From assembly GCA_965287045.1 (NCBI GenBank), contig OZ336885.1, forward strand, positions 61,256,001 to 61,320,000: a DNA stretch of 64,000 nt. Direction: 5' to 3'. Position numbers: made by a program. This document shows positions 1 through 63,000 of this stretch, in pieces (the first letter of the stretch is position 1; every line of letters begins with the position of its first letter). This DNA is from Carcharhinus amblyrhynchos. Its lineage: Eukaryota.

Positions 1-3000
1 CATAAAACGTGCGTAGGGAGAATGTATCTTATTTTGAAATGGACAAACAGTCCCAGTGTTTCACTAAGAACCCCGCGACAGAATACACAACTCCCTTTTT
101 AATATACACTCGAGTTAAAAGATCATTTTTTCATCATTGTTCTTCTTTCCATCGAGAGTACCAAAATAAGATTGCCACAACAGAATCATATTTCTTGTGA
201 ATGATTTTAGTGGATAATAAGCACTTACAGAAATTAGCAGCTTTGGAATTTTATGTACATAAAGATAAATTTCATTCTGCACAGCCAAAATGAGCTGAAA
301 TAATATTGTTGCATAATGCGTGAAAATTGAGCATGCGTTTCAAAAACCACAGTATTTGCAAGTATGAGATAAACAGACGTCGGTTCCGTCTCTTGCCTTT
401 ATCTTTCATTGTGAATATGCTCTCTAAAATAATTAAAATACGCATATATTATCAACAATGTACAACACAAATGGTCTGATTTTTGTATTTGGGATTCTCG
501 CTCTTTTTTTCCATCATCATCATTTAATTGAGAAACTTCAGAATGTAATGACACTGTCTGTGCATTAATCAATCTATCGTCCAGCGTCAGCAGGTTTACT
601 TCACCCGAATATATCATCATTAAGTAAAACAAAAAAAAAATTAAAGCGGATCATCTGGATGAACATGGAGTCAAAGCTGGGGATTTATTTTTAGACGTGC
701 AGCAAACTGAACATGCTTTTCCATAGCTGTCGGATTAAAAGACGGTTAATAGTGTCCTTGCTGTCGACGTTTCGTCTATCAGTTAATCATTAAGACATTC
801 GTTCTGTTGACAGAAGCCCCTGTAATGAATTAGTACAGATTAAAGCAACTGGATAAAAAAAAGAGGATGCGGAAGGGAGATTTCACAAGTCCAATAATAA
901 TAATTAAAAAATGATTTGGAATATTCTGTTTTGCATTCCAACGATTAAAATGCAACCACAATAATGAAGAGCTAGGTAAGCATCTGAAAAATGTTTCATA
1001 AAATAAGTATAAATTAAAGTGACCACACGATGTTCAAATTGCTATCCTATCCATGGGATGATTCGATGTTGCATGTTTTATAGTACAATGACAATCGTAC
1101 TAATCCATCTTTGATCTCTGAGAGAATGTATTCGTGCATATATTAATTGCGCTTAGGCTTCTGAAGAAAATTGCTATGTTTGCCGTTACGGATTGCTCAA
1201 ACTTCTTCCCACACGAACAATTTCAATCGAAATTTCAAAATCCCACGACATTTTGAGATAATTTCAAAAACAGTGTTCACTCCTCGAGTGACCCTGAATT
1301 ATTTTTTGATTTCATTTCATAACTGCTTAATATAAATATGTTTGATCTGTTTAGTGCACACGAAAAACATATAAAAAATCTTCTCCACAAGTGTTATGTC
1401 AAGCTGCTTCATCATCACTAACACACTGTGTAGCCTCAAAAACAATACTGTGTTTTTCATATAACGCACAATTATTCATGGCATGGAGAAGCTAAACATG
1501 TTCAATGCTTCACTTTTTTTTCTATTATCGACTTTTCGTTAAATGGATGTAGAAATGATTTGCAAGTTTATTATTTCTTGCCTATACCTCAATGCAATAA
1601 ATCATGGACGTCACACAATTCTCGAAGTGCCTGCAGCCAACATTGTAGATTCGCCCTTGCCATCCTCTTCTCGAAGTACTTCCTGGATGTTGCCTCAAAA
1701 TGAGCCAAATAACTCTGAAATATTTCAAAGTCAGCAACTTGTGTGGCTGAGATGATAATTTGTGAGTAGGCTACCGCCATAACTATTTCCCATTGCTTTC
1801 GTCCAGATATTATATCCAGCATGTTCGGAAAGCTATGTGGCAGGCTTTTGATTTGTGGTCGTAATTCGGATGGAAGCTGCACTGTACCTTAATGCGGGCA
1901 GTAGTGAATTCAGAAATGATCGAGTGGGATACAGACCGAATTCATTCCATTATCCTGCATGGTATCAAGCTTTATTGCGTGCTGTAGGAAATGTAATGAT
2001 TCAGAAAATTTACAGTGTTGTACAATTCGCAATACCCTTGAAATCTGCCTCGCTGATTATGAACACGTTTTGACAAATCAATAGATGATCTCCTAACCCC
2101 GAAATACCAGCCTTCATATGGCTCAATTATATGGCTCAATTATTTCATGTATTTTTTGTTTGGTCATTATTAGATCTGCGCATATTGACGCTAATGTATT
2201 CACCGAAAGAACCGCAGCTGAAAGAACAGGGAGTTTTTGGTGTTCTGTATTATCGGCGATAATTGCAGCTTGCCACTTAGTTCATGCGAATTTTACTTGA
2301 TACCTGCCGGTACAATATTGAATTTTGTTCGTGATGGATTACATGCTAGGAATGTATGTTTCAGTATCTGAGAGTTCCTGTACATTTTGCAATAGAAGTG
2401 AAGACCGCCACTAAGTGAGTGCTCACGGTGGCAACATTGCATCCTCTGAATATGCAATGGCCTAAAGCACAACACTTAGCTGTTTTTGCACTTATGGCAT
2501 GTCAATATTTAAGATTGATTCACATAATCCCCCACAAAATTGGTTACAGTGGAGAGTTTGTCTGTCCAAATCCTATACACTTCAGTTTTGCTGAAATGCT
2601 ATTTATATATGCAGCATCATTCATTGTTTGCATCTGAACACAACCTGCTACTTTTACAAACTAAAGAACTTGACTTTTCCCAGGAGGACAATGAAATACA
2701 AATGATTCATTCATGTACCTTTTTCTTCAAGATTTTTCTTCAATTGCTGGCATTCTAGGGATCAATATCGTAATTATACAGTTCATTATATCATAACGAA
2801 TGCCATTGTTGGATGGAGATTGCGAAATTCTGCCTAATGCATGTTGAAATGATGAAAGTATGGCGCCCGATATTTGAGTGCATAAGTTGAGAAGCAGATA
2901 AATTTAAATGCTGATAATGACTTCTCCCCCGCTGTGACAAGATATTTAACGGTGAACGTATAATCCTGCCTATTTGAAATAATTATGAACGTTTGGGAGT

Positions 3001-60000: not shown

Positions 60001-63000
60001 TTGTCCACATGTTATTGAGTTGTTTTAAATTGTGGCAGCTATGGTGGATGATCACGGGACATATCATTTCAAGAATTAGAGTGGTGCTTAGCTTAGTCAC
60101 TTTTATGCAAAATTGGCTGAGGGTGCATACCATGACAAAAGGCATTTTTTCGAAAAAAAAGTTAACTGCCCAAAATGATGTTTTTCTTTCTCGAATTAAT
60201 CTAATCTTGTCAGCATAACATGCGTGTCTTCATGTATACTAATCTCAGTGTAAAATCATCTCAATTAGGCTTGAATGATCCATTTTAATAATTTTCAGGA
60301 GTTCAACAGTAATTTTAACTGATCGGGTATCGGTATCCCAGGTGACACAATAACTATGCAGAAATATGGGTTGTCCATGTCATTTCGGCGGGTCTGGACT
60401 CCTATATCCAAGCAACTAAATGATGCAAACAGTATTTTCCTATAATGTATTCATGGATTATCTAGTTTGTTTTTGTTTAATCGTTTAACTTTATTTCGAT
60501 TTAATCTCAGAAATTACCACGATTTGAGCTAAATTCGTCTGCTTGCGATTTTATCTTAAACTTTACGATCACCCGTCCAGATTCATAGAATTCCTACAAC
60601 GCCGAAGGAGATCATTTCGCCAATCGAGTCCTCACCACAATCCAACAAAGTCCCAATTCCCGTCATCCCACATATGTAACCTGAGAATCCCACGACGCTA
60701 GGTTCAATTTAGCATTGACAATCACCCTAATCCGCACATCTTGTGATAACGATGTGGAGATGCCGGTGTTGGTGTGGGCAGAGTAAGAAGTCTGACAACA
60801 CTGTTTTAAAGTCCAGCTGGCTTATTTTGAATCACGAGCTTTTGGAGAGCTGTTCCTTCTTCAATAATGACTATACCACCCGATGAAGGAACAACACTCG
60901 GAAAGCTTGTGATTTCAAATAAGCGGTTTGGAATTTAACCTGCTGGTGTGAGACTTCTCACTTTATCTTAGGTTAAACCAATGGACTTTAGGAAGAAACA
61001 ACAGCACCGAAGGAAATCTACACAGACACGTATGAAATGTGAAAACGCCACACAGTCAATAACCCGAGGCCGGAATTGTACCTGAATCCCTGTTGATGTG
61101 AGGGAGCAGTGGCACCATGCCACCGTACCGCCCCGGAACATAAGCTACCAGGCCGGAGCTATTGTCTAGATTCTATCATTGTCCTTTTTGGTAACATTTC
61201 ACTTTAACAATCTATATTGTCTCTGCAGTCGCAAACTGAATTGTCTATATGAGGTAAACACTATTTAATAGTCTGATAAATTACTTCCTTTCAAAAATGT
61301 GGGCGCCAAACTAAAAAAAACCCTTCAACAACACAAATTCATTTTATGAGTTCTAAAAATGTCAACTGCTTTACATTTGGTTGTCAAGAAATATTTGTCA
61401 AATTGTTACCTTTTCCTTTCGCATCTAACCTCTCCGCTGTTAAGGAATACACGAAAAATTGAATAAAGGAGGGATTTTTGGAAGCATAGATAAGGTTAGG
61501 ATCACTTATATTAAAACAAAAGGCTGATGAAAAACAGGTACGTGGGCCTAAATTGCAGGTGCTGTTCGCGAACGTATATTCACTGAAATCCCACTTTCCA
61601 GATTTTCTTCTGCTTAAAGGCAGGCTACGATTTTGTCCTGCGTAACTACACACCTAACTGGATGTGGGAAGAAATTCTGTTGTTACGTGGTTAAGACAAG
61701 ATTTTGAATACACTGTCAGATAACTAAAAAAGAAACCTGACATTGTAAATATTGTTGCATTGTCCGTGGGCTGCAGTGCACTTCATGCTCTGTCATATCG
61801 TTCTAAGTCTATCTGAATCAGAAAAGTCAAACATGTCACTAAGCCATCTTGCAGTCTTAACTCAGCTGATCAGGCGAGCAGCCACACTCAGAACTTTCTA
61901 TCACATATTAACACATGACACCCCGAATGAATGAACAATGCAATAACCTGCAAAACATGGAAGGGAAACAACGACCCACATTGCCACATTTACATCTAGC
62001 AATTGAGCCAAAACCAATACCCACCTCATTCACTTTCATGCTGAACGAATCTCCAACATTTCTAAATAATTAATTCAGTTATCAAACCTAAACACCTGCC
62101 AACTGTATCAAAAACATAATCGAGAACAATATCATTCACTTATACACCACACCCAGCTTACAAGAAGAGGCACCACCCGTCCTAACCCTCACCCCCCCAC
62201 CTCATACAGCACTTCAAATTCACAACCACCCAGCTAATACACTATCACCTGAAATAACCACCAGTCATTAAGCTGGACACTACTTAAAATGCAGACAATG
62301 AGATCCACTTATCCCGCTTATCCAGCTACATGTTTTTTTTCTCAGTTGCAACAGGCAACCTGACCATTCATTCCCTTGCCAAGGTCCGTCCGCAAACATT
62401 CATCCATTCACCCAGTCATCAAACCAGTAACACTCAATGGCTGTTCCTTTAATTGACCAATCTCAGTTCTTGTCATAAGAAGTCAGGATTTAATGTTATT
62501 TCGCCGTCTTCAATCCACTCAGATGGAGTTCTGCATGGGATGCTATTATATGCATTTCTCTCAGACAAGAATTTGTCGGAGAAAAATGCAAACAATCACG
62601 GAGTCGATGAAACTTAGAAGCTTTAATTTCAATGTTTAGAATTGTCGAACCAATGAGTGTTTAATTGGACAGTTGTGCGAGCGACAGTTGGTTTTATGAC
62701 TTGTTCGGTGAATAATGTTGATTTTGTTGTTTATTTATTCGTGCACAGCCTTACAGTATGAAAGGGTGTATGCAAAAAAAAAATGCTTAAATGGACGACA
62801 CAGTGGACTGCTGCATCGGACTGCCACGATCCCTGGTTCGATTCCGGTCCTGGGCTGTCTGTATGAATTGCATGTTAGTTAGATTGGCCATGCCCAATTG
62901 TCATTTGGTGACCCAGACTTGTACAGCACATCCAAGGTAAATGTTCAAAATTACGGAGACCACACGGAAAGACATTCCTGGGCGTGATATTCTTTGAGAA

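What the first reader, a model, noticed from the sequence alone, without database searches (positions are those of the whole stretch)
397..61436. Fully skippable exon array: potential combinatorial length tuning
Seen: every exon is phase 1-1 and ends in G, A or C, never T, so no combination of skipped exons can frameshift or create a junction stop. Inference: isoforms could differ in rod length. Skipping a 36+27 pair keeps heptad register, while skipping a single exon shifts it and could alter oligomer or partner specificity. This would be a micro-exon-gene-like diversification mechanism in a vertebrate.
Basis: inference. Interest (0 to 1): 0.7.

Follow-up and report, generated by a model that had tools for sequence, protein, structure and literature searches.

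The report
Micro-exon array encoding a helical rod
About twenty tiny, identically phased exons on the minus strand encode a charged helical rod. Any of them could be skipped without breaking the reading frame, but that is an expected by-product of how such repeats arise, is already known from chicken BG and elastin genes, and nothing in the sequence shows that skipping is used.

Summary
The exon array is real and lies on the minus strand. I rebuilt 21 exons between 397 and 61436 (15 of 27 nt, 6 of 36 nt). All 21 are open in the phase-1 frame. Their last bases are G16/A3/C2/T0, and 0 of 210 ordered exon-to-exon joins gives a stop. The array is far above chance: 15 phase-1-open 27/36-nt candidates against a shuffle mean of 2.27 and maximum of 6.

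"Never T" is not informative. In 14 of 20 natural junctions the next exon starts AA or AG, so a T would already put a stop in the full-length mRNA, and T is rare before GT anyway.

The exons encode a K/E/L-rich peptide with no proline. The heptad pattern is strong in the 3' part only if candidate exon 13663-13689 is left out. The 5' part shows no continuous register.

The exon order fits a 36-27-27-36-27 super-repeat. One exon pair is a clear tandem duplicate.

No sequence evidence for regulated skipping was found. Fully symmetric, skippable arrays are known in vertebrates: tropoelastin, chicken BG heptad micro-exons and TNNT3.

The parts
61410..61436 (-). 27-nt exon, phase 1-1, last base G
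   Evidence: acceptor 2.66, donor 3.43
58583..58609 (-). 27-nt exon, phase 1-1, last base G
   Evidence: 3.25, 5.22
57087..57113 (-). 27-nt exon, phase 1-1, last base G; less certain
   Evidence: 3.26, 1.04
55402..55428 (-). 27-nt exon, phase 1-1, last base A, donor gtaagt
   Evidence: 1.48, 2.36
53638..53664 (-). 27-nt exon, phase 1-1, last base G
   Evidence: 3.26, 3.85
52712..52747 (-). 36-nt exon, phase 1-1, last base G; hydrophobic at residues 1, 4, 8, 11
   Evidence: 5.02, 5.20
49354..49380 (-). 27-nt exon, open only in the phase-1 frame, last base G
   Evidence: 3.26, 4.55
48115..48141 (-). 27-nt exon, last base G, weak donor score
   Evidence: 2.66, 0.63
47367..47402 (-). Candidate 36-nt member with a good acceptor and the a/d pattern, but AT instead of GT at the donor. 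Possibly a dead exon. Unproven.
   Evidence: pattern hits 12 on minus against 7 on plus strand; not found by a DNA profile of the six 36-nt exons
43730..43756 (-). 27-nt exon, last base A, weak acceptor, donor gtaagc
   Evidence: 0.32, 1.90
41280..41315 (-). 36-nt exon, last base C, donor gtaagt
   Evidence: 3.85, 0.98
29251..29277 (-). 27-nt exon, open only in the phase-1 frame; tandem duplicate of 22183-22209
22183..22209 (-). 27-nt exon, open only in the phase-1 frame; tandem duplicate of 29251-29277
19811..19846 (-). 36-nt exon, open only in the phase-1 frame, last base G
   Evidence: 1.49, 4.90
16638..16664 (-). 27-nt exon, last base G
   Evidence: 2.66, 3.79
14381..14416 (-). 36-nt exon, open only in the phase-1 frame, last base C, donor gtaagt
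   Evidence: 3.85, 1.86
14144..14170 (-). 27-nt exon, last base A, weakest donor; follows a 210-nt intron
   Evidence: 1.49, 0.20
13663..13689 (-). 27-nt candidate exon with strong splice sites. Its 9 residues break the heptad register of the 3' part.
   Evidence: 2.07, 5.51
6490..6525 (-). 36-nt exon, open only in the phase-1 frame, last base G
   Evidence: 2.66, 2.18
5121..5147 (-). 27-nt exon, last base G
   Evidence: 2.07, 4.25
2719..2754 (-). 36-nt exon, open only in the phase-1 frame, last base G
   Evidence: 1.48, 2.19
397..423 (-). 27-nt exon with a GC donor, last base G. An alternative GT donor would give 379-423 (45 nt, last base C).
63175..63201 (-). Possible further upstream 27-nt exon outside the finding's range. 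Strong acceptor, weak donor, last base T.
   Evidence: 4.16, 0.35
12203..12250 (-). Possible 48-nt phase 1-1 exon (charged peptide, last base G). Not in my core list.

Best explanation
The window lies inside one gene on the minus strand. Over 61 kb the gene consists of about 21-22 micro-exons of 27 or 36 nt (621 coding bases, about 1% of the span), separated by introns of 0.2-12 kb. The exons encode a lysine/glutamate/leucine-rich peptide with no proline, that is, an extended alpha-helix that forms a coiled-coil-type rod or stalk at least in its 3' part.

The array grew by tandem duplication of exon units. Only exons that are a multiple of 3 long and share one phase can multiply in this way, so uniform phase 1-1 follows from the origin. 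The intron sits inside a codon that is usually Glu: the last base is G and the next exon starts AA or AG. That codon and the AG|GT splice consensus together explain why no exon ends in T.

'Every subset can be skipped in frame' is therefore a by-product of origin and of ordinary coding constraint. Most exons are probably spliced constitutively, and occasional skipping of individual exons is likely, as in comparable genes.

Shown: the array, its phase, the junction arithmetic, the residue composition, the heptad pattern in the 3' part, and one duplication. Inferred: helix and coiled coil, the duplication origin of the whole array, and mostly constitutive use.
For: - Array above chance: (15 candidates against a shuffle mean of 2.27 and maximum of 6).
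- Frame: 21 of 21 exons open in the phase-1 frame, 8 of 21 only there.
- Composition of 186 internal residues: K32 E26 L20 N14 Q14, G1, P0, W0.
- Exon purine content is 0.69 against 0.51 for the strand.
- Register: all 6 of 6 36-nt exons share one internal heptad register, and 8 of 15 27-nt exons have the register that continues it.
- In the 3' part without 13663-13689, 13 of 13 residues at one register are hydrophobic, and 0 of 2000 shuffles reach the LIVM power at period 3.5.
- Exons resemble each other more than shuffled exons do: 36-nt mean identity 0.469 against 0.319 (sd 0.018); 27-nt 0.365 against 0.307 (sd 0.008).
- The flanks of exons 29251-29277 and 22183-22209 are paralogous: E 1.9e-23 with 60% identity over 444 nt directly downstream of both, and 134 of 183 aligned columns identical around the exons.
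- In that alignment the two acceptor AGs do not sit in the same column and the exon bodies align with gaps, yet both exons are 27 nt. This argues for selection on exon length.
- 14 of 20 natural junctions have a downstream exon starting AA or AG.
- T-runs are enriched in the 150 nt upstream of the exons: 45 against 14.8 +/- 6.7.
Against: - Short, symmetric exons are the class most often skipped (recalled). The two best analogues, BG tails and tropoelastin, do show alternative splicing.
- The array is not uniform. Three positions have two 27-nt exons in a row, and including 13663-13689 abolishes the heptad signal (1740 of 2000 shuffles reach it). Optional exons would explain this neatly.
- Several exons have weak scores: 43730-43756 acceptor 0.32, 14144-14170 donor 0.20, 48115-48141 donor 0.63.
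- A 467-nt inverted repeat (about 90% complementary) brackets exons 48115-48141 to 41280-41315 and could favour their joint skipping.
- My exon list was partly chosen by peptide character.
- No transcript, orthologue or protein match supports any exon.
Confidence: 0.6

Rival explanations
1. One reading: the array is a regulated combinatorial system. Tissues produce many isoforms that differ in rod length, preferentially by 63-nt exon pairs.
For: All 210 ordered joins are stop-free and in frame. 36+27 pairs keep the heptad register. BG tails and tropoelastin set a precedent for alternative splicing in such arrays.
Against: The permissive arithmetic is explained without skipping: 14 of 20 junctions need a non-T base anyway. 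Pair skipping would need coordinated removal of two exons 0.2-12 kb apart (intron lengths). No splicing-regulator motif is enriched. The array is not a clean series of pairs. A candidate upstream exon ends in T; joined to any AA- or AG-starting exon it would give a stop.
Confidence: 0.12
2. Restricted switch. Only the extra 27-nt exon of each 36-27-27-36-27 unit (48115-48141, 22183-22209, 13663-13689) is optional, or is used in mutual exclusion with its neighbour. Leaving it out gives an uninterrupted heptad rod. Including it inserts 9 residues and shifts the register by 2.
For: Without 13663-13689 the 3' part is in perfect register, and with it the signal is lost. 22183-22209 is a tandem duplicate of its neighbour 29251-29277, and tandem duplicates are a common source of mutually exclusive exons (recalled). 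The exon order fits a five-exon super-repeat three times over.
Against: The super-repeat needs the unproven AT-donor exon 47367-47402. 13663-13689 has the strongest donor of the set, 5.51, which does not suggest a weak optional exon. With all exons included a strong periodicity of 3.40 appears (0 of 500 shuffles reach it), so a regular structure that includes them is possible. There are no transcript data.
Confidence: 0.12
3. There is no functional gene here. The array is a decaying pseudogene segment, or partly a chance set of AG..GT intervals.
For: One member-like 36-nt segment lacks a GT donor. The 5' part has no continuous register. No homology or expression evidence could be obtained. 10 other open candidates exist at loose thresholds.
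Against: 15 candidates against a shuffle maximum of 6. 21 of 21 exons are open in one frame. There is no proline and only one glycine in 186 residues. The duplicated exon pair has kept 27 nt although its two acceptor AGs do not align and the exon bodies align with gaps.
Confidence: 0.08

Closest known systems
Chicken BG genes (butyrophilin family): cytoplasmic-tail micro-exon arrays
   Same: A vertebrate gene region made of many tiny exons with split first codons. [quoted passage not shown]
   Different: BG exons are 21 nt (some 18 or 24), one heptad each. Here the exons are 27 and 36 nt, and a 36+27 pair makes three heptads. Introns here are 0.2-12 kb. No Ig-V or transmembrane exon was found in the window. 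In-frame intron read-through was tested for one intron only, the 210-nt one, which has stops.
Tropoelastin genes
   Same: All splice sites are phase 1:1 in all species examined. [quoted passage not shown]
   Different: Tropoelastin exons alternate between hydrophobic and cross-linking domains and are longer. Here the peptide is charged and helical, with 1 Gly and 0 Pro in 186 residues.
Fast skeletal troponin T (TNNT3) 5' exons 4-8
   Same: A run of small alternatively spliced exons of the same phase class (PMC2447309 abstract).
   Different: There are five exons encoding an acidic variable region, not a heptad rod. The heptad part of TnT is encoded by the constitutive 3' exons.
Schistosoma micro-exon genes (MEGs)
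   Same: 10-20 very short exons, mostly multiples of 3, separated by long introns, giving several proteins per gene (bioRxiv 10.1101/2023.06.21.545858 passages).
   Different: MEGs are specific to Schistosomatidae and encode secreted proteins, with most exons 15 bp long. Here the two exon sizes are 27 and 36 nt, the peptide is periodic and helical, and no signal-peptide exon was established.
CD23-type C-type lectin stalk
   Same: A heptad-repeat stalk that mediates trimer formation (PMC6791321 passages). That its 21-residue repeats are each encoded by one exon is recalled and was not seen in any call.
   Different: Here 21 residues are split over two exons. No lectin-domain exon lies in the window. 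Membership could not be tested.

Membership tests
BG/butyrophilin-type heptad micro-exon tail | Exons of 21 nt (occasionally 18 or 24), one heptad per exon | tested here: not met
   15 exons of 27 nt and 6 of 36 nt. Lengths 18, 21 and 24 are not enriched.
BG/butyrophilin-type heptad micro-exon tail | Split first codon and one shared phase through the array | tested here: met
   21 of 21 exons are open in the phase-1 frame and all lengths are multiples of 3.
BG/butyrophilin-type heptad micro-exon tail | Hydrophobic a/d heptad stripe through the tail | tested here: inconclusive
   Strong in the 3' part if 13663-13689 is left out (0 of 2000 shuffles). Absent in the 5' part (394 of 2000) and over all 21 exons (539 of 2000).
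BG/butyrophilin-type heptad micro-exon tail | Ig-V exon and transmembrane exon upstream of the array | not testable with these tools
   Only 2.6 kb lie upstream of the first exon, with no convincing larger exon there. The rest of the gene is outside the window.
Tropoelastin | All introns phase 1:1 | tested here: met
Tropoelastin | Alternating hydrophobic (Gly/Val/Pro-rich) and Lys/Ala cross-linking exons (recalled) | tested here: not met
   G 1, P 0, V 8 of 186 residues; K/E/L dominate.
Collagen-type exons (multiples of 9 nt) | Gly at every third residue (recalled) | tested here: not met
   Exon lengths of 27 and 36 nt fit, but there is 1 Gly in 186 residues.
Schistosoma micro-exon genes | Short symmetric exons between long introns | tested here: met
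Schistosoma micro-exon genes | Signal-peptide first exon, secreted product, restricted to Schistosomatidae | not testable with these tools
   The source organism is unknown. One hydrophobic ORF start at 61948-62029 was seen but is unsupported.
Neuronal regulated microexons (recalled: UGC-type upstream enhancer, GCAUG downstream) | Enrichment of these motifs next to the exons | tested here: not met
   Counts in the 150 nt upstream and downstream of the exons: TGC 54/42 against background 53.6 +/- 7.0; GCATG 2/4 against 4.7 +/- 2.3; TGCATG 1/1 against 2.4 +/- 1.6. Power is low with 21 exons.
C-type lectin stalk of CD23 type | Lectin-domain exons 3' of the stalk | not testable with these tools
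   The array runs to base 397 on the minus strand, so anything 3' of it is outside the window.

The most novel reading that the evidence does not exclude
The array is a five-micro-exon, 51-residue super-repeat (36-27-27-36-27). In it the extra 27-nt exon is a regulated cassette. Leaving it out gives a continuous heptad coiled coil, and including it inserts 9 residues and shifts the register by 2. Splicing would then switch the register, and possibly the partner or oligomer state, of a vertebrate rod protein exon by exon.
Probability: 0.08. Interest if true: 0.65.

Novelty: new member of a known kind. Interest (0 to 1): 0.3.

Why it matters
If the exons were used combinatorially, one gene could supply rods of graded length or shifted register. 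That would bear on how stalk or tail length is tuned in receptors and scaffolds.

As it stands, the useful result is narrower. It is a clean example of a coiled-coil segment built from 27/36-nt exon units, with one duplication caught in the act and exon length visibly conserved. It also shows that in such arrays 'skippable in every combination' cannot be read as evidence for skipping. Two paper searches for 27- and 36-nt exon arrays found no description of this architecture. The gene itself may still be annotated in its source genome.

Tried and rejected
- My first scans used the wrong frame offset (1 base first). This was corrected from then on.
- Self-BLAST of the window shows only interspersed repeats and no recent exon-unit copies.
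- Rfam at gathering thresholds gave 0 matches, and there are 0 tRNAs, so no intronic RNA gene names the host gene.
- A scan for larger exons with strong sites on the minus strand found none convincing.
- DNA profiles of the six 36-nt exons and of eight 27-nt exons recovered only their own members.
- A suspected dead exon at 24628-24660 was rejected: 159 of 404 columns were identical to the 19811-19846 region, which is background level.
- A purine-content filter without a frame filter was too noisy to help.
- Splicing-motif counts were at background.
- The 210-nt intron is a multiple of 3 but contains stops, so BG-like read-through is excluded there.
- Paper searches for 27/36-nt exon arrays or 21-residue exon repeats gave nothing relevant.
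- Collagen and elastin readings were rejected on composition.
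Full report
**Orientation.** The window is 64,000 bases without N. The feature lies on the minus strand. Base 61436 is the first base of a 27-nt exon that follows an AG and ends before GT. Bases 397-423 form a 27-nt exon with a good acceptor and a GC donor. 'Phase 1-1' means that each exon holds two bases that finish a codon, then whole codons, then one base of the next codon. My first scans used the wrong offset. From then on the offset is right.

**The array is real.** I scored splice sites with a crude position-weight scheme whose numbers I recalled rather than trained.
- At acceptor >= 1.5 and donor >= 1.0, the minus strand has 16 AG..GT intervals of 27 or 36 nt. Of these, 15 are open in the phase-1 frame, against 5 and 6 in the other two frames.
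- The plus strand has 4 such intervals.
- 100 shuffles within 100-nt blocks give a mean of 2.27 and a maximum of 6.
- Across all lengths from 15 to 69 nt, only 27 nt (10 candidates) and 36 nt (5) stand out in that frame and strand.
- Of the 15 open candidates, 13 are in my exon list. Two (53315-53350, proline-containing, and 10104-10139) were dropped on peptide character.
- At loose thresholds 30 of 37 candidates are open. 20 are in my list and 10 were dropped, of which 3 end in T.
- The 21st exon, 397-423, has a GC donor and is outside these GT-only counts.

**The stated facts hold for this list.**
- There are 21 exons, 15 of 27 nt and 6 of 36 nt, totalling 621 nt within a span of 61,040 nt. 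Introns run from 210 to 12,002 nt.
- All 21 exons are open in the phase-1 frame, and 8 are open only there.
- Last bases are G 16, A 3, C 2, T 0. First dinucleotides are AA 8, AG 6, AT 3, and CG, AC, GT, CT once each.
- None of the 210 ordered joins of an earlier exon to any later exon gives a stop. 110 of them give Glu and 30 give Asp.

**'Never T' carries no information about skipping.**
- In 14 of the 20 natural junctions the downstream exon starts with AA or AG (first-two-bases column). A T at the end of the upstream exon would therefore put TAA or TAG into the ordinary full-length message.
- The split codon is mostly GAA or GAG, so G is needed to encode Glu.
- T is uncommon at the last exon position in vertebrates. 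My recalled figure is about 8%, which alone gives roughly 0.17 for no T in 21 exons.
- Of the 5 exons that end in A or C, 4 have a gtaag-type intron start, the usual compensation.
- One candidate just upstream of the finding's range, 63175-63201, has a strong acceptor (4.16), a weak donor (0.35) and ends in T. If it is real, the property stops there.

**What the exons encode.** The 186 internal residues are K 32, E 26, L 20, N 14, Q 14, D 10, R 9, A 9, S 9, with G 1, P 0 and W 0. Exon purine content is 0.69 against 0.51 for the strand. This is the make-up of a long charged alpha-helix.
- All six 36-nt exons place hydrophobic residues at internal positions 1, 4, 8 (and 11), for example IEKLKTDVEDN and VEKLKRKVKDL.
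- 8 of the 15 27-nt exons have the register that continues this stripe across the 12+9 residues of a pair.
- In the 3' part (22183-22209 down to 397-423) without candidate 13663-13689, 13 of 13 residues at one register are hydrophobic. No shuffle of 2000 reaches the LIVM power at period 3.5.
- With 13663-13689 included the signal vanishes: 1740 of 2000 shuffles reach it.
- The 5' part (61436 down to 29251) has no continuous register (394 of 2000), and neither has the whole set (539 of 2000).

So 'rod with heptads' is supported for about 93 residues, not for the whole span.

**Higher order.** If the AT-donor candidate 47367-47402 is counted, the exon order from 52747 downwards reads 36-27-27-36-27 three times and then 36-27. 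Exons in the same column resemble each other. With all of these included, the strongest LIVM periodicity is 3.40, and 0 of 500 shuffles reach it when their own best period is taken. This would fit a 51-residue unit in which one 27-nt exon adds 9 residues to two 21-residue blocks.

The candidate 47367-47402 has a long pyrimidine tract, an AG, the a/d pattern and a G at its 36th base, but AT where GT is needed. Similar acceptor-anchored pattern hits number 12 on the minus strand and 7 on the plus strand, and a DNA profile did not find it. It remains a possible dead exon only.

**How the array grew.**
- Same-length exons are more alike than shuffled exons. For 36-nt exons the mean identity is 0.469 against 0.319 (sd 0.018). 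For 27-nt exons it is 0.365 against 0.307 (sd 0.008).
- Exons 29251-29277 and 22183-22209 are tandem duplicates. The first ~450 nt of the introns that follow them align at 60% (E 1.9e-23), and 134 of 183 aligned columns around the exons are identical.
- In that alignment the two acceptor AGs do not sit in the same column and the exon bodies align with gaps, yet both exons are 27 nt. That points to selection on exon length, as expected for exons that are both in use.
- No other exon pair shows positional flank homology. The remaining intron matches are interspersed repeats.

**Signs of regulated splicing.** I found none.
- Counts of GCATG, TGCATG, TGC, YGCY, TCTCT and related motifs within 150 nt of the exons are at background. 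Only T-runs upstream are enriched (45 against 14.8 +/- 6.7), as expected for real acceptors.
- The 210-nt intron is a multiple of 3 but carries stops.
- A 467-nt inverted repeat, 89-91% complementary, at 35258-35724 and 48792-49257 brackets exons 48115-48141 to 41280-41315. Such pairs can favour joint skipping or back-splicing (recalled). This is a lead and not evidence.

**Identity of the gene.** It was not established.
- Every exon encodes 9 or 12 residues. This is below the 20-residue floor of the family and solved-structure searches and the 30-residue floor of the Atlas, so an exon-by-exon search could not be run.
- No larger exon was found in the 2.6 kb upstream or elsewhere.
- The DNA collections on offer hold bacteria, phages, plasmids and E. 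coli, so I did not use them.
- I did not take the contig for human.
- Whether the rod is extracellular or cytoplasmic therefore stays open.

**Comparison with what is known.**
- Passages of two chicken BG papers describe cytoplasmic tails encoded by 13-36 exons of 21 (sometimes 18 or 24) nt, with a split first codon.
- The TNNT3 abstract notes that its alternatively spliced 5' exons share one phase class.
- MEG passages describe 10-20 short, mostly 3n exons between long introns.
- A CD23 paper describes a heptad stalk. That its 21-residue repeats are single exons is only my recollection.

The present array works like the BG tail but fails its defining exon size. It shares phase with tropoelastin but not composition.

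**Verdict.** What is worth keeping is the anatomy: 27/36-nt exon units, 21-residue pairs, extra 9-residue exons that break the register, and a caught duplication.

Noticed in passing
window about 30027-31872, minus strand: A LINE-type retroelement fragment inside the 12-kb intron. One ORF matches Pfam RVT_1 (E 7.5e-24). The coding region is split over three ORFs, which implies at least one in-frame stop and at least one frameshift.
   Followed up: partly
window 23091-23323, minus strand: A stop-free stretch in the 7-kb intron whose peptide looks to me (recalled impression) like the start of a LINE endonuclease. Not searched.
   Followed up: no
window 35258-35724 and 48792-49257: A 467-nt inverted repeat pair, 89-91% complementary, 13 kb apart in two introns. 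It brackets exons 48115-48141, 43730-43756 and 41280-41315. It could promote looping-out of those exons.
   Followed up: partly
window 5986-6255, 29598-29767, 34436-34743, 38858-39193, 45864-46196, 46586-46769, 54888-54990: At least seven copies of one interspersed repeat family of up to about 340 nt, 65-81% identical, in both orientations. No tRNA or Rfam match. Family not identified.
   Followed up: partly
window 56571-56647: A perfect (GAA) microsatellite of 25.7 copies on the plus strand, with a GAG/GAA-rich stretch just upstream. It accounts for the poly-Glu ORF 56559-56945.
   Followed up: no
window 61948-62029, minus strand: An ATG-started hydrophobic stretch of 27 residues that ends one base before a weak GT, that is, in phase 1 as a signal-peptide exon would. 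There is no supporting evidence and it may be chance.
   Followed up: partly
window 1661-1693, minus strand: A 33-nt phase 1-1 interval with a charged peptide and a GC donor, between exons 2719-2754 and 397-423. It would split the last 36+27 pair if used.
   Followed up: no
window 43730-41315, 22183-19846, 16638-14416, 5121-2754 (introns): Four introns that lead from a 27-nt exon to the next 36-nt exon are nearly the same length (2414, 2336, 2221 and 2366 nt), yet show no sequence similarity beyond shared repeats.
   Followed up: partly
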